A DNA stretch of 64,000 nucleotides, from positions 2,486,932 through 2,550,931 of the forward strand of contig OZ244938.1 of the NCBI GenBank assembly GCA_965222175.1, given 5' to 3'. Under the pieces are notes generated by a model. That model saw only the letters and a list, made by a program, of their open reading frames with translations, did no database searches and had not been told where the DNA came from. This DNA is from an uncultured Pseudohongiella sp. Lineage in GTDB: Bacteria; Pseudomonadota; Gammaproteobacteria; Pseudomonadales; Pseudohongiellaceae. A program made the position numbers and the translations under genes. Below, piece after piece: positions 22,491-44,429 of the stretch; positions within the stretch are counted from its first letter, which is position 1; every line of letters starts with the position of its first letter.

Positions 22491-22690
22491 GATTCAAGGA
22501 CTGTCTGAATAAGTATGGAAGTGCTCTGCGGGAATCTGCGGGGCATTACTGCAGGGCGTCGAGCGCCGGGAATGGCCATCGCCCTTGCCAGGCGCGGCAA
22601 CACCGCGGTAGTGCGCGACAGACTCCGATCGCCCCGGATGCACTGCGAAGGAGCGACCGGAACGACCAGTGTCTGATAGGGTAAGAGCGC
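22491..22690 (-). repeat. MITE-like repeat, degenerate copy (inverted relative to 36943..37232)
   Basis: Reverse-complement alignment with the 36.9 kb copy across tatggaagtgctctgcggga..ctgcagggcgtcgagcgccgggaatggccatcgcccttgccaggcgcggcaacaccgcgg..gcgcgacag. Confidence 0.75.
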
Positions 22691-28366: not shown

Positions 28367-28876
28367 TTATTGAAAAGCGACGAAAGCGTCATTGAAAACC
28401 TGCGTGGCAAACAGAACTGTACCGATACCCTGCTTGCTCAACATCAGGTAGATAAGTAACAGCACTCCTGCAAAAGCCGGCACTCCCAGTGCCATCCATA
28501 GTTTCATTAACCCGGCACAGTGCTCCACTGTACCACCGCCACTCAGGATTTTAGCTATCCGAATCTGAATAAATACCACTGGCAACCAGCAAAGTCCGAT
28601 AACCGTGAAAATACCTATGACGCTTATAAACCAGACAGAGTTGAAAGAGATCCCCATAGACGCGGTTAACAGGAAACCAGTTACTACCTGGGTGACCATG
28701 GCAGGCGCTGTGAAAAGCCAATCGGCCAGGACAACGGTACGAGCCGTGACTTTCAAGGCTTCCACATTACCGCTGAGATACGCCCTCAACATGAAGAAGG
28801 CGATTCCTGACCCGGTTCCCAGAATTAAAGTTGCCCCGACAATGTGAATCAGTTTAAGCCAAAGGTAGGTGTTCAT
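28367..28876 (-). CDS. DUF2269-family integral membrane protein
   Basis: 169 aa with 4 TM segments: LKLIHIVGATLILGTGSGIAFF... Confidence 0.6.
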   Translation of the reverse strand: MNTYLWLKLIHIVGATLILGTGSGIAFFMLRAYLSGNVEALKVTARTVVLADWLFTAPAMVTQVVTGFLLTASMGISFNSVWFISVIGIFTVIGLCWLPVVFIQIRIAKILSGGGTVEHCAGLMKLWMALGVPAFAGVLLLIYLMLSKQGIGTVLFATQVFNDAFVAFQ

Positions 28877-30393: not shown

Positions 30394-30578
30394 ATAAGGA
30401 ACCCCTGATTAATTGTGGAAATACTCTGGCTTTCAGACAAGTTCACTGACGAGGCGCCTAGCCGCCGGCACGCATCGGCCTGTCAAGGCAAGACAACGAT
30501 GACAGTGGTCTCGCCTGGAAGCCCCTTCGGGCGCGGCCTGTCGGGCAGAGCACTTCCATAATCAGTAAGAGGTTCCAC
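30394..30578 (+). repeat. MITE-like repeat, short copy (~185 bp) with imperfect TIRs
   Basis: aaggaacccctgattaattgtggaaatactctggctttcag...gagcacttccataatcagtaagaggttcc. Homologous to 36943..37232 with about 90 bp of internal deletion. Confidence 0.8.
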
Positions 30579-30609: not shown

Positions 30610-31131
30610 TTGGACAGCGGAGTCGTTGACATAAGCTGGGTCGCTTCACTGTTACACGTACTATCATACGTAGTCGTGGTCGGGTTGGTCCTGTGGATGG
30701 GATTCTCACTGCTTGGCTACCTGCATCGGCGCGCCTACAACCTGAAGGCCGCCGAAACGACCAGCGGCGGAAAATCTCCCGCATTCCTCGACAACACCGG
30801 TCGTTCCGAGGAAATCCGCAAGAAAGCGGAAGCATTCGATGAACGGATGGCAGCCGAAGCGACGGAGGAAGCGACAGTCCCTACCGGCAGGGCCTGCAGA
30901 ATTGTCCGCTCTGTAACCATCATTGCGTCGGTTCTGACGTTTGTTGTCGCGATAGTCAGTGCCGTTGCCCGCATACAGATGTATGACAGCTTTGTGGAGA
31001 ACCTGAGCAGTGCCGAGCATTTTTTCAATATTCTCAGAACCTATTGGCTCGGTGCCACAGTAGCCGGACTCATTATTCTGGTCCAGGCCATCCGCATTAC
31101 AATTGCCATAAAAAACAACAAAGTACCCTAG
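30610..31131 (+). CDS. Small integral membrane protein (3 TM), first gene of kinase operon
   Basis: 173 aa. TM helices near residues 10-35, 105-125 and 145-165. NfeD-like positional partner of the downstream SPFH protein. Confidence 0.55.
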   Translation: MDSGVVDISWVASLLHVLSYVVVVGLVLWMGFSLLGYLHRRAYNLKAAETTSGGKSPAFLDNTGRSEEIRKKAEAFDERMAAEATEEATVPTGRACRIVRSVTIIASVLTFVVAIVSAVARIQMYDSFVENLSSAEHFFNILRTYWLGATVAGLIILVQAIRITIAIKNNKVP

Positions 31132-31217
31132 TCGAGCTGCTGGCTTAGTCGGTAGCCAGGAACCCGAATACATCTTCCCAGTTCAGTTTATCAAATATAA
31201 AAACAAGGGGTCCGGAC

Positions 31218-32783
31218 ATGCTTTCCAACAACATCTCACTGAGCGGCGATGAGGTCTTGTGTGAATACGTTCCCATGGAGCAATTCAAGGGGTTTCTGCA
31301 GCAGCGGATCGGCATCGCTCCCGATACGCTCACCGTACTGATCAGGGACGGCCAGGTTGCGGACGTGTCTCACGGGGCGCACCTGTCCGTCGGGGGGATC
31401 TGGCAGTCTGTCAAGGAATCAATAGGTGGAAGCCATGCACTGCAACTGCTCATCGCCGACGCCAGGCCTTTTGAATCCACATTTTCCTTTCAGGGACGCT
31501 CTCGGGACAACGTGGAGGTCGACGCGGAAATCACCCTGCAGATCCAGGTTGATCCACAGTCTGGCAGTAATATTCTTGGCCTGGCGAGCCAGAACAACAT
31601 AACCAATAAATCCGCTGTTTTCGAACGCCTCATCCCCCATTTCAATGATCGGGCACTGCAATCCATCGTCGGCCAGGTGGACGCAACCAGCTTACGTGGT
31701 GCCGTCGACGTACAGGACAAACTGCAGGCAGAAATGCTCAATGTCGCCGAGGATGTGCTCGGCGACATGGGCATTGTGGTGCGGGCGAGTTCGGTTAACT
31801 GGGCTGTCAACGAGGAAGAAATCGCTCAGATGGCCAGTCGGGATCGCGAGCGGGAACAGGCTCTGCTGGATGAAAAGCTGGCGCACTACCAGAAGGAAAT
31901 CGAGAGAGCGGAAACGTCCACCGTGCTGAAACTGGAATCCGACCTGGCAATCGAAAAAATAAAGGCCATGAGCGAAGACGAATTGCGCAAAATGATTGCG
32001 ACGCAGGAAGCGGAATTTGTCGAGGTCAAGGAAGCAGCGAAACGGGCCGCCAGACTCAGTGCCCTGGAAGGAGAAATCGCCGAATTTAACGTCGAACAAC
32101 ATGCCAGGTTCGACAATGCCCTGAACGAGGCCAAGAACGAGGTCGAAGTTAAAAAGATACAGCTTGAGATAAAACAACTGGACCTGAAAACGGAAGAGCT
32201 GGAACGCCGCCAGGAAGTTGCCCTTCACAAGCTTGAGGAGCTGTCCAAGCTGGAGGTTGCCGCGGCTGCCCGGGAAAACCAGATCAAATCCATCGAGGGA
32301 TTGAATGCAGCGGACCTGGCACTCGAACAAGGCAAAACCTCGATTGCCGACGAAAGTGCCGACAGGGCTACACAGCGCCGTCTCGACGAAGCGCGCCAGG
32401 CGGACACCACGGAAATAGAAAAACTGAAACTGCAGCAGGGCATGTCTGCCGATCAATTACTGGCGCTGCAGGCGGGGCTCTCTCCGGAGGTGGCGGCAGT
32501 TTTCGCAGAACGGGCCAAGACAGATCAATCCTCGGCTGCTGAACAGAAAGCCATGATGGAAAAGCTGATTGAGAGCGGAGCCAGGTCCAGTGCAGACGCC
32601 AGGTACTTCTTCGAACAGTTCAAGGAAGGCGTGATCGGGGTAGCAGCCGGAGCCGGTCCGGGCAATGCGGGCAATCCGGCGGCTGGCAGTTCTACCGTCA
32701 GCGCAAATTGTCCACAGTGCAAGGTTGCAAACGCCGCGGGTAATGAATTCTGTGTTGGCTGCGGTGCTCCGCTGCGAGGCTGA
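31218..32783 (+). CDS. SPFH/band-7 (flotillin-like) domain protein with long coiled coil and C-terminal zinc ribbon
   Basis: 521 aa. N-terminal SPFH-like segment (FSFQGRSRDNVEVDAEITLQIQV...LGDMGIVVRASSVNWAVNEEE). About 250 aa of E/K/A-rich coiled coil follows. C-terminus is CPQCKVANAAGNEFCVGCGAPL. Confidence 0.6.
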   Translation: MLSNNISLSGDEVLCEYVPMEQFKGFLQQRIGIAPDTLTVLIRDGQVADVSHGAHLSVGGIWQSVKESIGGSHALQLLIADARPFESTFSFQGRSRDNVEVDAEITLQIQVDPQSGSNILGLASQNNITNKSAVFERLIPHFNDRALQSIVGQVDATSLRGAVDVQDKLQAEMLNVAEDVLGDMGIVVRASSVNWAVNEEEIAQMASRDREREQALLDEKLAHYQKEIERAETSTVLKLESDLAIEKIKAMSEDELRKMIATQEAEFVEVKEAAKRAARLSALEGEIAEFNVEQHARFDNALNEAKNEVEVKKIQLEIKQLDLKTEELERRQEVALHKLEELSKLEVAAAARENQIKSIEGLNAADLALEQGKTSIADESADRATQRRLDEARQADTTEIEKLKLQQGMSADQLLALQAGLSPEVAAVFAERAKTDQSSAAEQKAMMEKLIESGARSSADARYFFEQFKEGVIGVAAGAGPGNAGNPAAGSSTVSANCPQCKVANAAGNEFCVGCGAPLRG

Positions 32784-32821
32784 GGCACACGATAATCAGC
32801 ATCCTACAAATGTGACGGATT

Positions 32822-33973
32822 ATGGGCTACAAAGAGTGTTGCCATCTCGAGGCGGTGGACCCGAACGCCAGTTTCTGCGGCACCTGTCGCACACCGCTAC
32901 TCCGCTGTATTTCTTACCAGGAATGCAAACAGCTGGTTGAACCGTTCCAGCCCTGCCCGGTGTGTCTGGCACCACAACTGGTTATAGATGCGGGCGCGGT
33001 GGTCAGTGCCCAGGTCGGCGAACGTCTTGCCTTACCGATGATCGTGCGGAATCAGATAGATTCCACGGCGCCCATTCTGAGACCGATCTGGGCCAAGCGA
33101 ATCTATAAGCGGGAACGCGACCAGAAGCTTGTGTCGGTCAATATCGACTGGCAGTCTATAGATGCCGGCAAGGAACGCGAGTTTTATGTCGAAACCGGTA
33201 CATTCGGCGCGGGTGGTACGGACAAGGTGGATGTATTTCTGGAACTGGCGACCCGTTCCAAGGAAGGATTCGAAGAGAACCACGTCTTTAAAGGTACCCT
33301 GATGTTTTCCGTAGCCTCGCAGTCCGGTTCGCAACAGGTGGTGCAGAATATCAATCTATCCGGCGCCCACATGGAAGACAATGCATTGCTGCATATCCCC
33401 AGCACCAATACCGGAGGCAGCCAGGAAGAGACAACAGGCAGAACCGTGGACCAGCGCCAGGTAGTGAAACTGGAGCACGTGGAAAGCCTGGAACGGGAAC
33501 TGGGTACGCGTGGCTATACACAGTCCGGAATGCAGGTATCGCGAGCAGCCAAGTTTCGGCTGAGAGGATTCAATGAAGACGATGCACCCAGCTGGGAAGT
33601 CGGACTCGGCGCCAAGGGCCACCTGGCATTTGGGCGCTCTGATCGTGAACGGAGCGACGCCAATCCACTGCCGATGGATGTCCGCCTGCGCTGTTACAAT
33701 GCAACCGGTGAACTGGATGTAGACCAGTCGCTGTTATTGTCCCGACATCATTTTGATTTATTGGTCCTGAACGACCGGCTCGTGGTATTTGCCAGGAGCG
33801 GCAAGGGACTCGCCTTGAACGGGAAAATGCTGGGCTCGAACACGATCACCGATGTGAACGATGGAGATGTTATTGCTCCCTTGGCCGGCCAGGCAAGATC
33901 CCTTTCATTGCAGGTAAAATTCATCAGTGACATGCATGGTTCCGTAAATACAATCGAAGTTGCCCGTCTTTAG
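32822..33973 (+). CDS. Zinc-ribbon + FHA domain protein
   Basis: N-terminal CxxC pairs (CCHLEAVDPNASFCGTCRTPL and CKQLVEPFQPCPVC). C-terminal FHA signature: GRSDRER...SRHHFDLLVLNDRLVVFARSGKGLALNGKML. Confidence 0.65.
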   Translation: MGYKECCHLEAVDPNASFCGTCRTPLLRCISYQECKQLVEPFQPCPVCLAPQLVIDAGAVVSAQVGERLALPMIVRNQIDSTAPILRPIWAKRIYKRERDQKLVSVNIDWQSIDAGKEREFYVETGTFGAGGTDKVDVFLELATRSKEGFEENHVFKGTLMFSVASQSGSQQVVQNINLSGAHMEDNALLHIPSTNTGGSQEETTGRTVDQRQVVKLEHVESLERELGTRGYTQSGMQVSRAAKFRLRGFNEDDAPSWEVGLGAKGHLAFGRSDRERSDANPLPMDVRLRCYNATGELDVDQSLLLSRHHFDLLVLNDRLVVFARSGKGLALNGKMLGSNTITDVNDGDVIAPLAGQARSLSLQVKFISDMHGSVNTIEVARL

Positions 33974-34011
33974 CTGGCCAGGGTGATTTCCTGATATCAA
34001 AGGGAACGACT

Positions 34012-35487
34012 ATGAGTGACAACATAAGTGGTGTTGAGACGGTATACAAGTCAAGTGGGGCCTCAGTAGACGTAGAGCTCAACTTGAATGAACTGTTCGA
34101 CGGTCGGTATATGATAACAGAACGCCTTGGTGCTGGCGGCATGGGTACCGCTTATCTGGCCAGTGATCAGTTGACCGACGAAGAAGTCGTAATCAAGGTG
34201 ATTCATCCGTCATTGATGGACGAAGAGTCCAAGCAACGTATGATTGCCGAAGGAGTCAATGCACGGAAGATCAAGCACCCGAACGTCGTATCGGTACATG
34301 ACGTCAAGGAGGTGGACGGCCAGGTCTACCTGACCATGGAGCACGTCAAGGGCAAGTCATTGCGGAATTGGATGGCTGCCACCATGGCGTCAGGCAGCAA
34401 TGCTCCCGTAAATCACGTCGTGAAAATCATCAGGGAAATTCTATCAGGCCTCACTGCAGCCCATGATGCAGGGGTCATTCACCGGGATTTGAAACCCGAA
34501 AACGTCATGTTGGAGGGAACTCCCGGGGACGGTGAATTCAGGATAAAGATAATTGACTTTGGTATCGCCACCGGCCTGAAGGCGCCAGGCACCACCACTT
34601 CCAAGGGGGCAATTGGCGCGCCGCTTTACATGGCGCCTGAGCAGATGACCATGCCCGACTCCGTGGGCCCCAGTGCCGACATTTACTCAGTGGGACGTAT
34701 GTTTTACGAAATGCTAATGGACGTGCTCCCGGACGGAATGTGGAACCCGCCGAGTGCCACGCGTTCGGATGTCCCACAGGAACTGGACCAGGTGATTCAG
34801 AAAGCTCTGCAACCGCCCCGCAGCCGCTACTCCAGTGCAACAGAATTTTCCACGGCAATCAGCCAATGCATGTCGGGTGAACTGCGGCATGAACGCCCTG
34901 TTGAGGGTGATGAAAAAAATTCGGGACCGTCGCTGGTGGATTTTTTCAAACCCGGGAAGCTTGATTTCAAAAATAAGAAAACGCGAATCTGGGCGGTGGT
35001 GATTGCATTCCTCGTTATTGGTTCAGTGCTCTATGAGGATTACACAAGCCTTGATGACACCATTTACAATGGGTCGGATAATTCCGGATTTAATAGTGAT
35101 TTCAGCATCGACAACACGGCACAGGACTTCGTTGACGATTTCGTCGATGATGTGGCGCCCCCACCGCCCGAAGTACAGGTAAAGCAGGCGGTGACACCAG
35201 CGTCCTCATCACAGGCATGGCGGGGTGGAGATGGCAGTATCTTCGACATGACCGTGACTAACGGAGTTGTAAGCGGCTCCGGGTTTCTACAGCCCTGGGG
35301 CCGAGTCTCCCTGCGCGGCGACCCTGGCAGTTACGTCGACGTCTACAATTACCAGAATCAGAATGTGGCAGCGCTTTCCGGAAACATGGTTCCTTCCAAT
35401 TCCGCTCCGGGTGTCTGGGATTATACCGGCAGTATTCTGGTAAACGGCCAGATTGTCGGCGGTTTTATTTTTCACATTGATCATTAG
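34012..35487 (+). CDS. Hanks-type Ser/Thr protein kinase with one TM helix and ~130 aa extracytoplasmic C-terminal domain
   Basis: Kinase subdomains GAGGMGTAY, VIKV, HRDLKPENVML, DFGIA and APE are all present. TM helix IWAVVIAFLVIGSVLY. The C-terminal domain is unrecognised. Confidence 0.85.
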   Translation: MSDNISGVETVYKSSGASVDVELNLNELFDGRYMITERLGAGGMGTAYLASDQLTDEEVVIKVIHPSLMDEESKQRMIAEGVNARKIKHPNVVSVHDVKEVDGQVYLTMEHVKGKSLRNWMAATMASGSNAPVNHVVKIIREILSGLTAAHDAGVIHRDLKPENVMLEGTPGDGEFRIKIIDFGIATGLKAPGTTTSKGAIGAPLYMAPEQMTMPDSVGPSADIYSVGRMFYEMLMDVLPDGMWNPPSATRSDVPQELDQVIQKALQPPRSRYSSATEFSTAISQCMSGELRHERPVEGDEKNSGPSLVDFFKPGKLDFKNKKTRIWAVVIAFLVIGSVLYEDYTSLDDTIYNGSDNSGFNSDFSIDNTAQDFVDDFVDDVAPPPPEVQVKQAVTPASSSQAWRGGDGSIFDMTVTNGVVSGSGFLQPWGRVSLRGDPGSYVDVYNYQNQNVAALSGNMVPSNSAPGVWDYTGSILVNGQIVGGFIFHIDH

Positions 35488-35763: not shown

Positions 35764-36678
35764 CTAATTATCCCGGAGTCGAGATCGGATTCCTTTCCTG
35801 GCCTCGTCGATTTCCGATTTCAGGTCATCCCCGATTTCCTTACGCAATTCTGCAAGTAACGATTCCGTCGACTTTTTCATCTCATCCATTGTCGGGCCGG
35901 CCAGGCTGAATCCTGGCGCTTTTTCGATTGCACCGATGGTCCAGAAGTGCGCAGGGTCGGAATAAGAAGCCAGCGTTTCGAAAGGCAGTCGGAAGTATCC
36001 TCCGTCAGCCCATTCAGGACCCCAGGAATTTCTGACAATCCAGACCTTAGCCGGTATATCGTAGCCGACAAGCAGCATGGCATGGCCGCTTGCCGGTCGT
36101 CTGGCTCGCGTGCCGTCCACCGGCATGCTTCCGGTTCTGGCAGCCTCCTGGTAATACTCGCCGGGAATGTAAGTACCGAAAACGACCGGCAGCCCCACTG
36201 CCAGCGCAGCCATGGCCGAATTACCGAGTTCCGTGCGAGCGTATTGCACGGCTTCGTAACTCATCGCGTTCTGATAAGCCTGTTGAGACGGCATGGTGGC
36301 GGTCATCGCCGGATTGAATGGCCAGAGGCGCTCCTCGCAGGCGCCATAGGCCAGAACCGCAGCCATGGCATGATGGATGAAACTCCCGGTATCCTGGGAC
36401 TGGGTATCTGACATCCTGCGGGCATTGTAGTAGACAAACAGCCGCGACATATCAGTAACCCCACTGCCTGCCTTGCGTTGGTGATATTCCAGCGCTCCGA
36501 CAACGGCGTTGGCCGTACAGGAGTTGGTCTGGCCCTGATTCTCCACAGGCGAACAGAGCGATCGGAGATCCACTTTTTCCGGCACTGAACCCGGTGGCGC
36601 CACTAGCGCGGGGGCGGTGCTGGGCTTGGTTTCGAAAAGACAGCCATTGAGCGGATGTTCATTCCAGGCATCAGTCAT
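35764..36678 (-). CDS. Papain-like (C1 family) cysteine peptidase, no signal peptide
   Basis: Catalytic Cys context QGQTNSCTANA, His GHAMLLVGYD, and Asn/Trp NSWGPEWADGGYF. A coiled-coil-like C-terminal tail follows. Confidence 0.75.
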   Translation of the reverse strand: MTDAWNEHPLNGCLFETKPSTAPALVAPPGSVPEKVDLRSLCSPVENQGQTNSCTANAVVGALEYHQRKAGSGVTDMSRLFVYYNARRMSDTQSQDTGSFIHHAMAAVLAYGACEERLWPFNPAMTATMPSQQAYQNAMSYEAVQYARTELGNSAMAALAVGLPVVFGTYIPGEYYQEAARTGSMPVDGTRARRPASGHAMLLVGYDIPAKVWIVRNSWGPEWADGGYFRLPFETLASYSDPAHFWTIGAIEKAPGFSLAGPTMDEMKKSTESLLAELRKEIGDDLKSEIDEARKGIRSRLRDN

Positions 36679-36942: not shown

Positions 36943-37232
36943 ACTAGGGAACCTCTGATCAATTATGGAAATACTCTGGCTTTCAGGCGAGTTCACTGAC
37001 GAGGCGCCTTGCCGCCGGCATGCGTCGGCCTGTCAAGGCGAGGCAACCCTTTTAAGCCAACAAGGGCAGTGCGCTCGCCTGAAAGCCCCGACCGGCGGGG
37101 CCTGTCGGGCGCCACTGCGGTGTTGTCGCGCTTGGCAAGGGCGACGGCCATTCCCGGCGCACGACGCCTTGCAGTAGCGCCCGACAGACTCCCGCAGAGC
37201 ACTTCCATAATTGATCAGAGGTTCCCTGGAGT
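36943..37232 (+). repeat. MITE-like element (~290 bp) with near-perfect ~28 bp terminal inverted repeats
   Basis: The left end actagggaacctctgatcaattatggaa is the exact reverse complement of the right end ttccataattgatcagaggttccctggagt. The interior is GC-rich with nested inverted repeats (ggctttcaggcgag/ctcgcctgaaagcc; ctgtcgggcgc/gcgcccgacag). Confidence 0.85.
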
Positions 37233-37480: not shown

Positions 37481-38647
37481 ATGATAATAAAATACATCAA
37501 GCGAGAATGTATCCGGATACCGGTTCTGAGCTTACTGATTTTCAGCTCGGCCGCCTCGGCACAGGATACAAGCGCAGAATCGACCTATGGTTCGGCAGAA
37601 CTGACAGGCAATTTCCTCCCTGACCCCCACAGCGTCCAGTTGCAGGCGGGAGGCGCCATCGACGCCAGCGCCATCGACGGCTGTATTGGATACATCAGCA
37701 ACGCACCGGACTACGAAATAAGCTACTCCGACCGCGCTGAATTCGATCTGAGCGTTTTCGTGGTAAGTGACACCGATACCACGCTGGTGGTCAATGCACC
37801 ATCAGGAGAGTGGTACTGCAACGACGATTTCGACGAAGCCGGCGGGACCAACCCGGGCATGGTGTTTTCACCCCCGGAAGAAGGTGTTTACGACATCTGG
37901 GTAGGGACTTACGAAGCCACAGACTCCTTTCCGGCGGCGGAGCTTGTAGTGACCGAAATCGGCCCGCCCTGGCTATTGACCTCCTCGGATCCCGGGAATG
38001 ACTCGGGGGAACCGACTTTAAGCAGTTCCGGTACGGGGTTCGTGGTAAGCCGTAATGGCCACGTGCTGACCAATAACCACGTGATCGAGGGCTGCAGTCG
38101 GACTACCTTTCAGTTACGTGGCGGGCTTCCCCAGGAAGCCAGCCTGATAGCAAGCAATGCAACAACCGACCTGGCGTTGTTGAAAACCTCTCTTGCCACA
38201 ATCCCGGCAATGTTCCGGGGGCCGAGGAGGCTGCGCCTGGGTGACGAGGTCATCGTCTACGGTTTTCCATTGCTGGGTGATCTATCCTCTCAGGGGAACC
38301 TGACCTATGGGATTGTCAGCGCCCTCAGTGGACTGGACGATGATTTGAGCAGACTGCAGATGACCGCGCAGATTCAACCCGGTAACAGCGGTGGACCGGT
38401 AATGAATCGTTCCGGTGAAATCGTCGGCGTCGTCGTGGAGACTGCCAATGAAGACTATTTTCGCGAACAACGGGGCACCGACACCCAGAATCTCAATTTC
38501 GCCGTACGGGATTCACTGGCTGTCTCGTTCCTGGATACCAACAACGTGGACTATCAATTGGGCGCGGCCGACGGTGAATCGATGGCCATTGCCGATATAG
38601 CAGAAATCGCGCAGGATTTTACCGGGCTGATTCTTTGTTATCAGTAG
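37481..38647 (+). CDS. Secreted trypsin-like (S1/DegP-type) serine peptidase with N-terminal beta-rich pre-domain
   Basis: Signal peptide present. Catalytic triad context TNNHVIEGC (His), DLALLKT (Asp), GNSGGPV (Ser). Confidence 0.75.
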   Translation: MIIKYIKRECIRIPVLSLLIFSSAASAQDTSAESTYGSAELTGNFLPDPHSVQLQAGGAIDASAIDGCIGYISNAPDYEISYSDRAEFDLSVFVVSDTDTTLVVNAPSGEWYCNDDFDEAGGTNPGMVFSPPEEGVYDIWVGTYEATDSFPAAELVVTEIGPPWLLTSSDPGNDSGEPTLSSSGTGFVVSRNGHVLTNNHVIEGCSRTTFQLRGGLPQEASLIASNATTDLALLKTSLATIPAMFRGPRRLRLGDEVIVYGFPLLGDLSSQGNLTYGIVSALSGLDDDLSRLQMTAQIQPGNSGGPVMNRSGEIVGVVVETANEDYFREQRGTDTQNLNFAVRDSLAVSFLDTNNVDYQLGAADGESMAIADIAEIAQDFTGLILCYQ

Positions 38648-38750: not shown

Positions 38751-39548
38751 TCAGCGTGGAAGTTTGACCGCATAGGCAGTAAATCCAAGATAAAGGCCCA
38801 CAAAAACGTACAGTCCAAGGATAAATTGCAGCAATGCAGGACCCTGTTCAAAGCGGGGCCCCCTGGTATCCAGCCTTACCAGGATCATGTCTTCAATTGC
38901 TTTCAGATCATGTTCGCTCATAGCCCGGGCAACGATTCTGTTATAAAAGTTACGCTGGCCGTATTTCCAGCTCACAACGTAACCGAAGCGATGATCGGCC
39001 GAAAGTTCTTCGTACTCTCCATGTATTGCCCAGACCCTCACCGGAACGGATGGATCCCATTGTTCAGTAACAAAAGGATCGGCATAGGTCAGCTTTCTGG
39101 ACCGCACCGTGGTTTCAAGACCTACTCCGTAGTCATGGAAGGCAAAACCGTCACGGAATTCCACAACGCCACGAATATCTCCTTCAGGTAATTCTGTGAC
39201 CGAAACTGGGCCAGACAACGGACCGTCGGGCAGATAGCGCCAAGGCACCTCAATGAAGATCAGGACAATCAACGGCAGTATAAAAGCAAGAACGGCAGCG
39301 CTGAGTGCATTCCACCGAACGAACCCTGAAGCGATTTTCGGGGAAAAATAATCTGAGTCACAACCGAAAAAATTCAGCAGCCGTTCAACGATCAGTAGAT
39401 CAGTCGATATTGACAGTAGCGCCCAACCCAACATTTTGTTGCTCATCCAATGGATGTTCAACAGAGCATAAAAAATGCAGAATCGAATCAACTGAAAAAG
39501 TATCAGGCTGACCCACAATCTGACCCATAGCCTGCTACTACCGTTCAA
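38751..39548 (-). CDS. Integral membrane protein, unknown function
   Basis: 265 aa with TM helices at both ends. Confidence 0.45.
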   Translation of the reverse strand: MNGSSRLWVRLWVSLILFQLIRFCIFYALLNIHWMSNKMLGWALLSISTDLLIVERLLNFFGCDSDYFSPKIASGFVRWNALSAAVLAFILPLIVLIFIEVPWRYLPDGPLSGPVSVTELPEGDIRGVVEFRDGFAFHDYGVGLETTVRSRKLTYADPFVTEQWDPSVPVRVWAIHGEYEELSADHRFGYVVSWKYGQRNFYNRIVARAMSEHDLKAIEDMILVRLDTRGPRFEQGPALLQFILGLYVFVGLYLGFTAYAVKLPR

Positions 39549-40042
39549 AATTTTGCCAGCTTCCTCAATTCAGCAATTTTTATTGTTTCGGCCCTGAGAT
39601 CGAGAACAAAGGGTAGTTTCCGACCGGCAAAGTTCAGCTTGATCCACGGAGCGTCGACTGTCTGATCCAGTTGCAGCCTGCCCTCGAAACGGGCAGCTTT
39701 CCTGATGTCTCTGACGCTGAAAACACGCTGCCGAAGACCAAAGCCGGACGGAGACAGGGTTTGCACGAGAATTTTTTCACCGTCCCTCTCAAGTTTCAAA
39801 AGGTATGAAGTTGCATACAGGAGCATACCCCCACCAAATGCACAACCGGCCAACGCGATGCCACCACCCATAACCAGCCGCATTCCAAAGGGTTTCAATA
39901 CCCCCCCATCGGCTTCTGCAAGTCCGTAGCCATTGAAAAGAATCCAGCCGGAGTACAGGCACACCACACTCAGAAGTAACGCGAACCAGAGCACCAGACG
40001 AACTTTCAATGCCTGCTTTCTGTTTTCGTATAGTATTCTCAA
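39545..40042 (-). CDS. Membrane protein, unknown function
   Basis: 165 aa with 3 TM helices. 4-bp overlap with the downstream ORF. Confidence 0.45.
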   Translation of the reverse strand: MRILYENRKQALKVRLVLWFALLLSVVCLYSGWILFNGYGLAEADGGVLKPFGMRLVMGGGIALAGCAFGGGMLLYATSYLLKLERDGEKILVQTLSPSGFGLRQRVFSVRDIRKAARFEGRLQLDQTVDAPWIKLNFAGRKLPFVLDLRAETIKIAELRKLAKF

Positions 40043-40389
40043 TACGGCTCACCTGAATTCGTGCCTGGGTCGGCGTGAAAGTCGAAACGGAACCAAAGGT
40101 CAATCGTGGTCGAATCCAGCAAATAAAGTTTGTCGCAGAAGCGGAACCCATGCCTTGGCGCTAGCTCCTGGCAGCGGACCATCAGTTTATGGAACAGTAC
40201 TTCGTATAGCATAAAGATTTGTTGTTCATTGATACGGGTTAGAGATGTCCTGGTGATGCGAGCGCTGCCAAGATGGTAGGGCTTGAATCTCCCTGTTATT
40301 ACAGTGTGGTTGCACATCCATTGTACCAATTTATTGAGATTCAGGCCTTTATTAATGCAAAGTTATGGGACAACAGCGATCAGCCCTAC
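40039..40389 (-). pseudogene. IS4-family (DUF4372-type) transposase remnant: IS left end fused to codons ~88-160 only
   Basis: Translation YHLGSARITRTSLTRINEQQIFMLYEVLFHKLMVRCQELAPRHGFRFCDKLYLLDSTTIDLW matches the IS4-family N-terminal region. The ORF shares a ~110 bp 5' leader with 42297..42409 but skips the first ~87 codons. It is truncated after DSTTIDL. Confidence 0.65.
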
Positions 40390-40575
40390 AAATGCCGGGC
40401 GACCTGGCAAGACCCGGATTTTAAAATATCTGTCCTAGCGCGAACGTATTTCGGTCTTGTTTTCAACAGTGTGCGCAATCGATTTCTTAAGCTGTATTTG
40501 AATCCACACGACCGGAAGCCAGCTCATCCCGATAAGAAAATAGATTCCAACTGTCAGCAATAGCCATGTAGTGTT

Positions 40576-40788
40576 TCAATCATAGCCAACCTCGTGAAGA
40601 AGCCAGAATCCTGTCAATGGTTGCAGAATTACCGCTGGAATCGTAAATATACAGTCAGCCAACACCGTATTTCTGACTGCATAGTATTTGCCGTGCTGAT
40701 TGGGAATTAAATAGGAACGAAACATAAAAAATACGATACCTGCTAATAGCAAACAGGACGGTTGAGCCAATGATGTGCAGAATGACAT
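40576..40788 (-). pseudogene. N-terminal fragment of a DUF2269 membrane protein paralog
   Basis: 70 aa (IVFFMFRSYLIPNQHGKYYAVRNTVLADCIFTIPAVILQPLTGFWLL) homologous to the N-terminus of the 28367..28876 protein. Truncated where the IS remnant begins. Confidence 0.55.
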
Positions 40789-40883
40789 TCATAACTGAAT
40801 CTTGAAATCGGCCAGTTACTGGCCCTATACAGAGAATTCACATACCAGTCTGAGGAGTGTACCTGTAAACCCCTCCGCGGACC

Positions 40884-41987
40884 TCAGGTATATCCTTTGC
40901 CACCACAGGAATTGCACCGCCCGTAGCCAAAACATTTGAGACAGTTAGAATCCGCTGAAACGTTAATACCTCTGCCTCCACAGAAAAAGCAGCTTCCGGA
41001 ACCTCCGCAAGTGAAGCACGACGCGCCATAACCCTGGGGGGTTTTAGTGATCCTATCCATTGATCCACTGCCAAGTGAAGCACGCAAGTCAGCCACGTCG
41101 GATTGAATTTCACGACGAGACTGATCCAGCTGACTACGTAAACTGTCCGGATTCCCATTGGAGATCGGCGCGGGTGTGGCAGGGGCGCTTTGTGGAACGG
41201 GCTTGACCAGCGAGAAATTTCCTTTTGGCTCCAGCTCCAGAATTATCCAGAAGGTATCTGGAGGCGAAAACAAAGCCATCTCCTTAAACGGAATCTTACA
41301 ATAACCATCGTTGCCCCATTCCTTACCCCAGCTGTTTCTTACGATAAAGTGACCCGCTGTGGAATCATAACCAACAATCAACATGCAGTGACCACTGGCT
41401 GGCTGGGAAACCAGTTCTGCCGGCTCTGAAGGCGGCATAAGACCAGTTTTCCCTGCTTCTTCATAAAGCCTTTGGGGAAGAAAGGTACCGAATACGACCG
41501 GGTAGTTGTTTGCGAGAGCCAGCATCGCACCATCCGGACCGGGAACCCGTGCATACTGTATTGCTTCATGTAACTTGCCGTTTTCGTATGCCTGTTGCGG
41601 TGGTTCCTTTATATAATTGTTGATGTCATAAGGCCAGAACTTGGATTCGCAGGCGCCAAAGGCCATTACCGCAGCCATTGCCTCGTTAATTGCCGCTCCA
41701 GAATCCTGCTCAGTCATCCCTTTCAAACGGCGAGTATTATAGTAGACAAACAGTCGGCTCAGTTCCGTCGAGTGTCCATCGCGCCTGGTATAGGCATACT
41801 CCAGTGCCCCCACACAGGCATTTGCTGTGCAACTGCCGATCCGCCCCTGATCTTCAACAGGTGAACAGTATTGTCGCAAATCAACTTTGGTGGGTAGATC
41901 CTGTTGCCCGAATTCAAGCCTATAATCACCGGCTTCAATACTCCCGAAGTCACACCCGTCAAGTCGATTTCCATCACTTGTCAACAT
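40884..41987 (-). CDS. Papain-like C1 cysteine peptidase fused to C-terminal DnaJ-type zinc finger (4x CxxCxGxG)
   Basis: Paralog of the 35764..36678 protein (QGRIGSCTANA; GHCMLIVGYD; NSWGKEWGNDGYC). C-terminus carries four DnaJ-type repeats: CFTCGGSG, CFFCGGRG, CLKCFGYG, CNSCGGKG. Confidence 0.75.
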   Translation of the reverse strand: MLTSDGNRLDGCDFGSIEAGDYRLEFGQQDLPTKVDLRQYCSPVEDQGRIGSCTANACVGALEYAYTRRDGHSTELSRLFVYYNTRRLKGMTEQDSGAAINEAMAAVMAFGACESKFWPYDINNYIKEPPQQAYENGKLHEAIQYARVPGPDGAMLALANNYPVVFGTFLPQRLYEEAGKTGLMPPSEPAELVSQPASGHCMLIVGYDSTAGHFIVRNSWGKEWGNDGYCKIPFKEMALFSPPDTFWIILELEPKGNFSLVKPVPQSAPATPAPISNGNPDSLRSQLDQSRREIQSDVADLRASLGSGSMDRITKTPQGYGASCFTCGGSGSCFFCGGRGINVSADSNCLKCFGYGRCNSCGGKGYT

Positions 41988-42107
41988 CTATCAAGCCTCA
42001 CGTTTTTCAACATCAGTTAAAAATGGGCCGGCTTCTTTTATCTGCCATACCTCGAATCCCGGTATACCAGGTGAGCAGCCAGCCCACCGCTATCAAACGT
42101 AACCCAA

Positions 42108-42409
42108 TTACAGACTGCATCCACCATTTTCAGAGTTAGGTCTGTATCGCCATGAAGATTTCCTGAATTCCCCGTAGTCTGGCCACCGAGACATTTTACG
42201 CAGTTTCTGGCCAACATGATGCCGATTGGCCAGGGATTCGAATTCATGTCTCGGAATGAATTTTAGCAATTGAGCGAAGACCGTATGATGATGTGCCAAG
42301 GCTTGAATCTCCCTGTTATTACAGTGTTTGGTTGCACATCCATTGTATCAACTTGTTGAGATTCAGGCCTTTTTTAATGCAAAGTTATGGAACAGCAGTG
42401 ATCTGATTC
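42108..42409 (-). pseudogene. IS4-family transposase remnant: IS left end plus first ~38 codons
   Basis: TTG-start ORF reading AHHHTVFAQLLKFIPRHEFESLANRHHVGQKLRKMSRW (DUF4372 N-terminus), then unrelated sequence. Its leader is about 90% identical to 40283..40389. Confidence 0.65.
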
Positions 42410-42778
42410 TGAAAAATTGGGTAGAATTTACGCAACAATATTCTTGACGATTCAGCTGCAGGACTGGCGAAGTCTCCGGAAAATTCCGGATTGGAAGACA
42501 GCCTTCCCGATCCGGCACTCAAGAGAGACTGCAGCGAGTATTGTGCCGTCTGTAATATCGCGCGACGCTGCTATTATTGCAATGGCACGGGACGAATCTC
42601 TGGTGACGGTTGCTGGAAATGCTCCGCATCCGGCAGATGTTACGCCTGCATGTACTGGTAACCTTTCAGGAAAACCTTCTTTGAATCGTCTCAAACCATG
42701 GCATCACTACCAGGTTAAATTGTCAACACTGTGAGATTCCGGCAAGCAACGCCGACAGTAAGACGGCAAGGTAACAGA

Positions 42779-43753: not shown

Positions 43754-44429
43754 TACCGATTCCCTTCCCCGGACTGGTCGCCGGATTCAACCCGGTCATA
43801 TACAAACCACACCTGTTCACCCTTGATATACATGGGAAACACCAGGAAAAATGTGCCGGTGAGCCTGCCCACGTAATGTACAGCCAACTCTCCGTCTTCG
43901 GTAAATGCCAGCGTATACTCATCTCTTTCCGCAGCCGGTAAAAAAATTCCCCCGGTCCAGAACAAACCCGCCACTACACCATCGAGCACCAGGGCATTCC
44001 AGCGGGTCGTGAAGCGCCAGCGACCGTCATCGCAGTCCCTGTCTCGTGGCTGCAGGATGACGCTCTCATCAAACCTGGAGCCTTCAGACCACGCGTACAG
44101 GACCAGTCTGTTGTCATTATCCCTATCAAACTGAACGCGGTCGATGGCAAAACCGGCCAACTCACCCCCCATATCAGCGAGGACAGTCGTGGAGTGGTTG
44201 TCTGCTGCTCACTGATTGTGCGGCCCGTATTGGCATAAAAACCGGTGGGCGATTGACAGGCGGCCGCAGTGTTGGCTACCAGTCGGGGTTCCTGCAACGC
44301 TTTCGTCACACAGCCACTCGGAACAAGTAGTGCCAGGAGCAGAGGAGCCAGGATTAACAAATTGATCCCGATGAAGCGGCCAGGATTGCCGCGCAGCGCC
44401 CGGTTTACCAATCGGTGGCTGGTGAACAT
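43753..44429 (-). pseudogene. Lipoprotein gene with frameshift at G6 homopolymer (44164..44169)
   Basis: Signal peptide with lipobox (LLLALLVPSGC) is in one frame. The protein-like remainder (GGELAGFAIDRVQFDRD...) is in the -1 frame. The two frames meet at the gggggg run, and one extra G restores a single ORF. Confidence 0.55.

What the first reader, a model, noticed from the sequence alone, without database searches (positions are those of the whole stretch)
40884..41987. Cytoplasmic papain-like C1 peptidase fused to a DnaJ-type CxxCxGxG zinc finger, with a paralog 5 kb away
The two proteins (35764..36678 and 40884..41987) share catalytic Cys, His and Asn contexts and are about 50% identical. 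Neither has a signal peptide. Both carry a charged helical linker (LRKEIGDDLKSEIDEARKGIRSRL versus LRSQLDQSRREIQSDVADLRASL). Only the second ends in four DnaJ-central-domain-type repeats (CFTCGGSG/CFFCGGRG/CLKCFGYG/CNSCGGKG). I do not recall a described architecture joining a C1 peptidase to a DnaJ-like zinc finger; it could mediate substrate or partner recognition. The paralog sits inside an IS-bounded cassette.
Basis: seen in the sequence. Interest (0 to 1): 0.65.

Follow-up and report, generated by a model that had tools for sequence, protein, structure and literature searches.

The report
Zinc-finger papain peptidase, IS-swapped operon effector
The gene is an intact cytoplasmic papain-type protease with a small DnaJ/BSD2-like zinc-finger tail; it belongs to a widespread, unstudied family that ends a conserved membrane-scaffold/kinase operon, and in this genome a foreign copy carried between insertion-sequence remnants has replaced the native one.

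The parts
40884..41987 (-). Long C1A peptidase CDS (367 aa + stop): N-terminal ~30-aa extension, papain-like core, linker, helix, Zn-finger tail. It is a xenolog relative to the sister strains.
   Evidence: ORF. Peptidase_C1 at 62 bits. Invariant Q47/C53/H200/N218/W220. AF2 pLDDT 85.8. Foldseek top hit xylellain 3OIS, E 2e-20. GC3 0.486 against 0.60-0.64 for the operon.
41223..41897 (-). Papain-fold catalytic domain (aa 31-255)
   Evidence: Pfam match spans aa 31-232. phmmer to 3ois_A spans aa 30-250, E 1e-32. pLDDT above 90.
41070..41150 (-). Conserved charged/amphipathic helix (aa 280-306), shared with short forms
   Evidence: DSSP helix 280-306. It aligns to the C-terminal helix of the short paralog. 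Conserved consensus MRxxIRxxLxxD..SSxKIDxLL.
40887..41018 (-). Compact DnaJ-CRD/BSD2-like zinc-finger tail (aa 324-367; 4 x CxxCxGxG; presumably 2 Zn)
35764..36678 (-). Short C1A peptidase paralog (304 aa; helix but no Zn finger). It is native and convergent to the kinase gene.
   Evidence: GC3 0.62. An identical protein sits in the same position in four sister-strain contigs.
30610..31131 (+). Operon gene 1: small membrane protein (173 aa)
   Evidence: Hydrophobic segments are visible in the sequence. It is syntenic with phmmer hits in most loci.
31218..32783 (+). Operon gene 2: soluble SPFH/Band-7-like protein with coiled coil and an invariant C-terminal CxxC..CxxC Zn ribbon (521 aa)
   Evidence: Precomputed Band_7 in orthologs and weak Band_7 in sister-strain copies. 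Band_7 at 9.6e-9 in 1 of 15 members, and Zn-ribbon families in 11 of 15. Invariant C498/C501/C512/C515.
32822..33973 (+). Operon gene 3: N-terminal 8-Cys Zn-ribbon region plus C-terminal FHA domain (383 aa)
   Evidence: The family profile hits only FHA domains (6c4u and Rad53 FHA1, E 2-3e-3). Invariant G271-R272 and S307-R308, and eight invariant N-terminal Cys. PF00498 FHA in orthologs.
34012..35487 (+). Operon gene 4: Hanks-type Ser/Thr kinase with one TM segment and a ~145-aa C-terminal extracytoplasmic region (491 aa)
   Evidence: Pkinase E 1.6e-44. HRDLKPEN and DFG motifs and the TM stretch IWAVVIAFLVIGSVLY are seen in the sequence.
40096..40381 (-). IS remnant A (left end plus decayed transposase N-terminus); left boundary of the foreign segment
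   Evidence: Direct repeats 40280-40381 and 42300-42403. Homology with sister strains ends at 40095.
42108..42403 (-). IS remnant B (left end plus DUF4372 transposase N-terminal fragment); right boundary of the foreign segment
   Evidence: DUF4372 at E 1e-12. Repeats. Sister-strain homology resumes at 42401.
40576..40788 (-). Foreign DUF2269 gene fragment, passenger in the cassette
   Evidence: Pfam DUF2269 at E 4e-11. Only 45% identical to the native DUF2269 at 28367-28876.
42413..42661 (+). 3' relic of the native long-form (396-aa, P0015-type) Zn-finger peptidase gene. It encodes the last 86 aa, including an intact 4 x CxxC tail.
   Evidence: tblastn of the sister-strain protein, aa 311-396, 70% identity, E 4e-33. 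Translation ends ...CAVCNIARRCYYCNGTGRISGDGCWKCSASGRCYACMYW*.
36950..37232 (.). 283-bp MITE-like insertion upstream of the short paralog (40-nt terminal inverted repeats); a second copy lies at ~30395-30576
   Evidence: Absent from sister strains.

Best explanation
SHOWN. The ORF encodes an intact, signal-peptide-less, xylellain-type papain-family (C1A) cysteine peptidase. It has a ~30-residue N-terminal extension with a conserved L-x-G-C motif, a conserved C-terminal helix, and a 45-residue tail of four CxxCxGxG motifs. The tail is a compact, BSD2-like member of the DnaJ cysteine-rich-domain superfamily. The protein belongs to a large uncharacterised family whose genes are the last one to three genes of a conserved operon: small membrane protein, soluble SPFH-like protein with a C-terminal Zn ribbon, Zn-ribbon+FHA protein, receptor-type Ser/Thr kinase, then the C1 peptidase(s). 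After the shared helix, family members carry alternative appendages: nothing, GPGxGGGY repeats, an N-terminal Zn ribbon, or the DnaJ-like finger (sometimes several modules). In this genome the operon (30610-35487) and the short paralog are native. The long gene is a xenolog lying between two truncated IS copies that replaced most of a native Zn-finger peptidase gene. INFERRED mechanism. The kinase senses an envelope or periplasmic cue through its extracytoplasmic domain. Phospho-threonine marks are read by the FHA protein. The SPFH protein, anchored by the small membrane protein, scaffolds the assembly. The peptidase(s) are recruited or released from inhibition there (the helix as docking element, the N-terminal extension as a xylellain-like cleft blocker) and cleave specific cytoplasmic or membrane-proximal targets. 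The zinc finger is a protein-protein recognition module for a substrate or partner, as in DnaJ, BSD2 and anti-TRAP. It is modular and exchangeable rather than part of catalysis.
Confidence: 0.6

Rival explanations
1. The operon is an anti-phage or conflict (abortive-infection-type) system and the peptidases are its toxic effectors. The variable tails and paralog turnover would then reflect an arms race.
For: Patchy distribution across distant phyla. Variable copy number of 1-3 and fused double peptidases. Peptidases are the most divergent operon component, at 41-46% identity against 50-61% for SPFH and kinase. Effector replacement by an IS-borne xenolog. IS or integrase genes next to other copies. 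The kinase resembles defence kinases in PADLOC and NCBIfam (PD-T4-6, MAD6).
Against: No PADLOC model matches the peptidases, the SPFH protein or the FHA protein, and the kinase hits are generic Hanks-domain similarity. The operon is found throughout the Hyphomonadaceae in conserved synteny and often sits among housekeeping genes, unlike typical defence islands. No copies with the helix or tail were found on plasmids or phages.
Confidence: 0.2
2. The zinc finger is a redox/zinc switch or thiol-oxidoreductase element, as proposed for the DnaJ CRD and ZnJ6, that gates the activity of the Cys peptidase under oxidative stress rather than recognising partners.
For: Eight invariant Cys next to a thiol-dependent enzyme. 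DnaJ-like fingers have reported oxidoreductase activity (PMC4428491, PMC7865324).
Against: Many family members work without any finger or carry non-Cys tails such as GPGxGGGY repeats in its place. That argues for an interchangeable interaction or targeting role. Flexible linkers separate the finger from the core.
Confidence: 0.1
3. The long gene is a functionless hitch-hiker: an orphaned passenger of a decayed composite transposon that is no longer expressed or integrated into any pathway.
For: It is detached from any kinase or operon and flanked by truncated IS copies and a gene fragment. No sigma-70-like promoter was found upstream. Its codon composition is foreign.
Against: The ORF is full length and every family-invariant residue is intact. 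A GAGG ribosome-binding site lies 8 nt before the ATG. It replaced a homologous native gene beside a resident operon of the same type, which is hard to credit as coincidence without selection.
Confidence: 0.1
4. One reading: a unique, locus-specific fusion of a C1 peptidase with a canonical DnaJ central domain.
For: Four perfect CxxCxGxG motifs. No literature on the combination.
Against: About 55 of the 120 best homologs share the architecture. The Pfam DnaJ model does not match. The spacing is not DnaJ-like. The same finger unit occurs in more than 4000 other proteins.
Confidence: 0.02

Closest known systems
Xylellain (Xylella fastidiosa C1A peptidase, PDB 3OIS) and 'short bacterial xylellain-type' C1A peptidases
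   Same: Best sequence hit (E 1e-32, aa 30-250) and best structural hit (Foldseek E 2e-20, TM 0.81 on the target). No classical I29 propeptide, and a short N-terminal extension instead. Intracellular type without a signal peptide. PMC10380794 notes that intracellular prokaryotic C1A peptidases lack signal peptides and names the xylellain type.
   Different: About 30% identity only. Xylellain has no C-terminal helix or zinc finger (291 aa, and the match ends at the core). Its genomic context was not examined here.
DnaJ/Hsp40 cysteine-rich domain (PF00684; E. coli DnaJ CRD, PDB 1EXK)
   Same: Four CxxCxGxG motifs, and the best PDB sequence-profile hit (E 8e-7). It presumably binds two zincs and acts as a protein-binding module.
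   Different: No Pfam match. Only one residue separates motifs 1-2 and 3-4 (start spacing 9-x-9), against roughly 14-22 in DnaJ (my recollection of the E. coli sequence). It is not inserted in a DnaJ C-terminal domain and there is no J domain.
BSD2 and other stand-alone DnaJ-like zinc-finger proteins (BSD2 PDB 6EKB; ZnJ2, ZnJ6, PSA2, OR; anti-TRAP)
   Different: Those are plastid or Bacillus chaperone or regulator proteins. None is fused to a peptidase. The window tail does not reach the Pfam BSD2_CRD threshold.
SPFH-protease partnerships (HflK/C-FtsH; stomatin-NfeD/STOPP) and the B. subtilis PspA-YdjGHI (SamGHI) module
   Same: An SPFH-family scaffold is encoded with a protease and a small membrane partner. 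As described for YdjI/SamI (PMC8581546), the SPFH protein here lacks a TM segment and ends in a zinc finger, so it probably needs the adjacent membrane protein for recruitment.
   Different: The protease here is papain-like rather than AAA+/metallo (FtsH) or ClpP-like serine (NfeD). A Hanks kinase and an FHA adaptor are integral parts. No PspA gene is present. Homology of SPFH521 to YdjI was not tested.

Membership tests
Peptidase family C1A (papain family), xylellain-type | Match to the family model above the curated threshold | tested here: met
   PF00112 at 62.1 bits against cutoff 20.7, aa 31-232
Peptidase family C1A (papain family), xylellain-type | Catalytic Cys-His dyad with Asn, plus oxyanion-hole Gln and the Trp after Asn | tested here: met
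   Q47, C53, H200, N218 and W220 are invariant in 41 sequences and align with xylellain and cathepsins
Peptidase family C1A (papain family), xylellain-type | Papain two-lobe fold | tested here: met
   AF2 core pLDDT above 90. Foldseek hits 3OIS at E 2e-20, followed by about 300 papain-family chains.
Peptidase family C1A (papain family), xylellain-type | Classical I29-type inhibitory propeptide and secretion signal (cathepsin-like zymogens) | tested here: not met
   Only about 30 residues precede the core, there is no hydrophobic N-terminus, and there is no I29 Pfam hit. This fits the short intracellular xylellain type, not cathepsin-like zymogens.
Peptidase family C1A (papain family), xylellain-type | Proteolytic activity | not testable with these tools
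   Needs an enzyme assay
DnaJ central cysteine-rich domain (PF00684) | Four CxxCxGxG motifs | tested here: met
   Motifs at residues 324, 333, 349 and 358; the Cys are invariant
DnaJ central cysteine-rich domain (PF00684) | Match to the Pfam model above the gathering score | tested here: not met
   No hit at E<=1 for the full protein or the isolated tail. Homologs with extra modules reach only 18-29 bits against cutoff 32.7.
DnaJ central cysteine-rich domain (PF00684) | DnaJ-type motif spacing and insertion within a J-protein C-terminal domain | tested here: not met
   Spacing is 9-16-9 here and 9-10-9 is the family mode. The domain is C-terminal to a peptidase and there is no J domain.
DnaJ-CRD superfamily (including BSD2_CRD and anti-TRAP) | Profile-level and fold-level similarity to solved CRDs | tested here: met
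DnaJ-CRD superfamily (including BSD2_CRD and anti-TRAP) | Binding of two zinc ions by the eight Cys | not testable with these tools
   Needs metal analysis. AF2 gives no metal.
Conserved TM / SPFH / FHA / Ser-Thr-kinase / C1-peptidase operon (defined here) | Peptidase gene immediately downstream of, and co-directional with, the kinase gene | tested here: not met
   This holds in 57 of 63 loci and for 7 long-form relatives. In the window the long gene is 5.4 kb away on the opposite strand inside an IS-bracketed insert. It is a family member by sequence, but a displaced one.
Conserved TM / SPFH / FHA / Ser-Thr-kinase / C1-peptidase operon (defined here) | Presence of all four upstream components in the same genome region | tested here: met
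   Window 30610-35487 encodes all four, at 97% nt identity to the sister strains
Known anti-phage defence systems (PADLOC-DB v2) | Match of the system's signature proteins to a defence-system model | tested here: not met
   No hits for either peptidase, the SPFH protein, the FHA protein or the TM protein. Only generic kinase-domain hits were found.
Composite-transposon-like cassette | Passenger DNA flanked by two copies of the same IS | tested here: inconclusive
   Two same-orientation copies of one IS end (28/28 and 90% over 78 nt) carrying transposase N-terminal fragments flank the 2.3-kb foreign segment. Both copies are truncated. No intact transposase, right ends or target-site duplication could be identified.

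The most novel reading that the evidence does not exclude
The five-gene unit is a previously unrecognised type of membrane-associated signalling-proteolysis system. It may be an immune or conflict system or an envelope-stress system. A receptor Ser/Thr kinase and an FHA adaptor, assembled on a soluble SPFH/Zn-ribbon scaffold, control papain-like effector peptidases. The target specificity of those peptidases is set by swappable appendages: the DnaJ/BSD2-like finger, GPGxGGGY repeats or an N-terminal Zn ribbon. The like-for-like replacement of the native Zn-finger peptidase by an IS-borne xenolog in this genome would then be a caught-in-the-act example of effector-cassette exchange.
Probability: 0.3. 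Interest if true: 0.75.

Novelty: new variant of a known kind. Interest (0 to 1): 0.55.

Why it matters
Bacterial intracellular papain-family peptidases are almost unstudied; xylellain is the only close solved relative. This work shows that a large subgroup of them is tied to one conserved operon that couples an SPFH scaffold to eukaryote-like Ser/Thr-kinase/FHA signalling. That gives a concrete and testable context for three things: regulated cytoplasmic cysteine proteolysis in bacteria, the function of a soluble zinc-ribbon SPFH protein, and a compact DnaJ/BSD2-like finger used as an add-on recognition module outside chaperones. Cultured hosts carry the operon (Hyphomonas polymorpha PS728, Henriciella pelagia and H. 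aquimarina), so genetics is feasible. The xenolog replacement also suggests that the peptidase is the exchangeable part of the system.

Tried and rejected
(1) Pfam and NCBIfam scans for a DnaJ-domain hit on the window protein or on the isolated tail found nothing, so I moved to profile and structure tests.

(2) PADLOC had no model for the peptidases or scaffold proteins.

(3) Single-sequence and profile PDB searches with the SPFH protein were uninformative, returning only Zn-ribbon-like noise. Single-sequence FHA383 against PDB returned nothing; the family profile was needed.

(4) Looking up the exact long protein in the contig index found no record. The listing of cluster members gave no organism names, so the source organism remains unidentified.

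(5) The literature searches and readings found no paper on the fusion or the operon.

(6) Plasmid and phage collections gave only distant catalytic-domain hits.

(7) The closest homolog's contig (P0002, 1998 bp) is too short to show the donor context.

(8) Promoter and terminator scans of 35.4-42.5 kb found no more sites than shuffled sequence does.

(9) My first tail-classification script counted CxxC after the alignment end and undercounted; it was redone.

(10) I considered that the low GC3 of the long gene alone proved foreign origin. I rejected that as insufficient because the neighbouring native genes M265 and M165 are also low. The sister-strain comparison settled the question.

Full report
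OBSERVATION. They are 45% identical over 296 aa (E 1e-87). Both pass Pfam Peptidase_C1 (62 and 59 bits; cutoff 20.7). In an alignment of 41 long-form homologs, the papain catalytic set Q47, C53, H200, N218 and W220 is invariant. So are all eight cysteines of the tail (C324, C327, C333, C336, C349, C352, C358, C361). Neither N-terminus has a hydrophobic stretch, so both proteins are cytoplasmic. The AF2 model (mean pLDDT 85.8) has a confident papain core, a helix at 280-306, low-confidence linkers at 274-279 and 306-319, and a tail at pLDDT 73-86. The closest solved structure by sequence and by fold is xylellain, 3OIS (E 1e-32; Foldseek E 2e-20).

THE FUSION IS RECURRENT. The homolog search returned 3881 proteins. 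Of the 120 best, about 55 carry the same helix plus four-CxxC tail, and some carry two or three extra finger modules. Short forms share the helix (ending ...LRxRLR) but lack the finger. Among peptidase ORFs in 82 non-duplicate loci, mostly from reference genomes, 6 have the finger, 30 end in one to five GPGxGGGY repeats, 15 have an N-terminal CxxC..CxxC ribbon, 32 have the helix only, and 16 could not be classified. The finger is thus one of several interchangeable appendages.

GENOMIC CONTEXT: A CONSERVED OPERON. Look-ups of long-form homologs showed the same same-strand gene string each time. The string is a ~170-aa membrane protein, a ~520-aa Band_7/SPFH protein, a ~380-aa FHA protein, a Ser/Thr kinase, and then the C1 peptidase(s). 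I then searched the window's proteins against six-frame ORFs of 85 fetched loci. Of 63 non-duplicate loci with at least 5.5 kb upstream, 57 have SPFH, FHA and kinase upstream on the same strand, and 54 have them in the same order. Forty-six have one peptidase, ten have two and one has three. Hosts span Alpha- and Gammaproteobacteria, Acidobacteriota, Gemmatimonadota, Planctomycetota and Geomonas.

The window contains this operon at 30610-35487(+). The kinase is a Hanks kinase (E 1.6e-44) with HRD and DFG motifs, one TM segment and a ~145-aa extracytoplasmic tail. The FHA assignment rests on a family profile that hits only FHA domains (E 2-3e-3), and on invariant G271-R272 and S307-R308 at the expected GR and SxxH positions. 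It is also supported by PF00498 hits in orthologs. The SPFH assignment is weaker. Band_7 appears in orthologs and appears weakly in the near-identical sister-strain protein. The C-terminal Zn ribbon of that protein is invariant. PADLOC has no model for any component except generic kinase similarity. No paper on the operon or on the fusion was found.

WHAT HAPPENED IN THIS GENOME. Four metagenomic contigs (L088-L091) carry an identical short peptidase and the same layout at 92-97% nucleotide identity. In window orientation, the lineage's layout is: [TM-SPFH-FHA-kinase] forward, short peptidase reverse, a secreted trypsin-like protease forward, two small membrane-protein genes reverse, a native 396-aa Zn-finger peptidase (P0015) forward, then lipoprotein genes.

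The window differs from the sisters in three ways.

- It has two MITE-like insertions, at about 30395-30576 and 36950-37232, that bracket the operon plus the short gene.
- It has a 2305-bp segment (40096-42400) in place of the sisters' 1022 bp.
- It has an unexplained extra 308 bp at 44021-44328.

The 2.3-kb segment consists of an IS-end remnant, a foreign DUF2269 fragment, the long peptidase gene, and a second copy of the same IS end with a DUF4372 transposase fragment. The DUF2269 fragment is only 45% identical to the native copy. The long gene is only 47% identical to the native protein and is inverted relative to it. Its GC3 is 0.486, against 0.597 for the native gene and 0.60-0.64 for the operon. 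Its nearest relatives (59-67% identity) lie in other lineages, where they directly follow a kinase. The last 86 codons of the native gene survive at 42413-42661(+), including an intact second finger sequence.

So a foreign Zn-finger peptidase allele, carried between two IS copies, replaced the native one. The block containing the short paralog is merely decorated by two later MITE insertions.

MECHANISM (INFERRED). The gene string pairs an SPFH scaffold with a protease, as in HflKC-FtsH and stomatin-NfeD. It also pairs a receptor kinase with an FHA phospho-threonine reader. The SPFH protein has no TM segment and ends in a zinc ribbon. In this it resembles B. subtilis YdjI/SamI, which needs small membrane partners for recruitment (PMC8581546; bioRxiv 10.64898/2026.02.06.704340). 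That resemblance comes from the literature and was not tested by sequence.

I propose the following. The kinase senses an envelope cue. The FHA protein reads the resulting pThr marks. The SPFH protein, anchored by the small membrane protein, assembles the complex. The peptidase is docked through its conserved helix and kept inactive by its N-terminal extension; my recollection of the xylellain structure paper is that its N-terminus occupies the cleft. Once activated, the peptidase cleaves specific targets. By analogy with DnaJ, BSD2 and anti-TRAP, the finger would recognise a partner or substrate. Its interchangeability with other tails argues against a catalytic role. The rivals are a defence or conflict system with toxic peptidase effectors, a redox or zinc switch, and a functionless passenger. 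They are listed with their evidence in the report sections.

VERDICT. However, the fusion is a recurrent family feature rather than an oddity, the finger is BSD2-like and compact rather than canonical DnaJ, and the important context was missed. That context is the conserved SPFH/FHA/kinase operon and the IS-mediated xenolog replacement. I rate it a new variant of known kinds, of moderate interest.

Noticed in passing
window 36950-37232, ~30395-30576, 22504-22627: A MITE-like repeat family. The full 283-bp copy has 40-nt terminal inverted repeats, a second copy is shorter and 79.5% identical, and there is an 85% partial copy. The first two bracket the operon plus the short peptidase and are absent from the sister strains.
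   Followed up: partly
window 42413-42661 (+): A pseudogene relic encoding the last 86 aa of the native 396-aa Zn-finger peptidase, with an upstream in-frame stop and several substitutions.
   Followed up: yes
L046, L067, L068, L073-L077, L079-L083 (peptidase C-termini): Hyphomonadaceae short-form peptidases end in one to five tandem GPGAGGGY(D/N)R repeats after the conserved helix. This is an unexplained Gly/Tyr-rich appendage that seems to take the place of the zinc finger.
   Followed up: partly
P0092, P0093, P0095, P0105, P0114, P0120; L023, L026, L030, L032, L045 and others: Acidobacteriota and Gemmatimonadota peptidases of the family carry an N-terminal CxxC..CxxC zinc ribbon instead of a C-terminal finger. 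The SPFH protein (C-terminus) and the FHA protein (N-terminus) also carry invariant Zn ribbons, so zinc modules recur in three operon components.
   Followed up: partly
P0003 (605 aa), P0010 (643 aa); L009, L010, L012, L014 ORFs ~8.3-10.9 kb: Single polypeptides with two C1 peptidase domains in tandem, at the operon's terminal position.
   Followed up: no
window 37481-38647 (+), 38751-39548 (-), 39545-40042 (-): A secreted trypsin-like protease (Trypsin_2, E 1e-26) and two small membrane proteins of unknown family sit between the two peptidase genes. They are conserved in the sister strains but not linked to the operon in other lineages. The two membrane-protein genes have low GC3 (0.50 and 0.54).
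   Followed up: partly
window 40576-40788 (-) and 28367-28876 (-): The foreign cassette carries a DUF2269 fragment that is 45% identical to the native DUF2269 gene lying just upstream of the resident operon. This may be coincidence, or a hint that DUF2269 neighbours this operon in the donor too.
   Followed up: no
window 44021-44328: 308 bp present in the window but absent from the sister strains. It is a unique sequence overlapping ORFs on the minus strand.
   Followed up: no
P0123-P0272 (representative library): There is a large, apparently undescribed population of proteins built from 8-32 compact CxxCxGxG units. Many have lipoprotein signal peptides, which is odd for a zinc finger, or TPR, PEGA or CHB_HEX_C domains.
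   Followed up: partly
L087 2629-4762; L001 11381-12729: Other copies of the operon are also next to mobile-element genes. In L087 an integrase plus IS91 transposase truncates the operon upstream, and in L001 Transposase_mut genes lie directly downstream.
   Followed up: no
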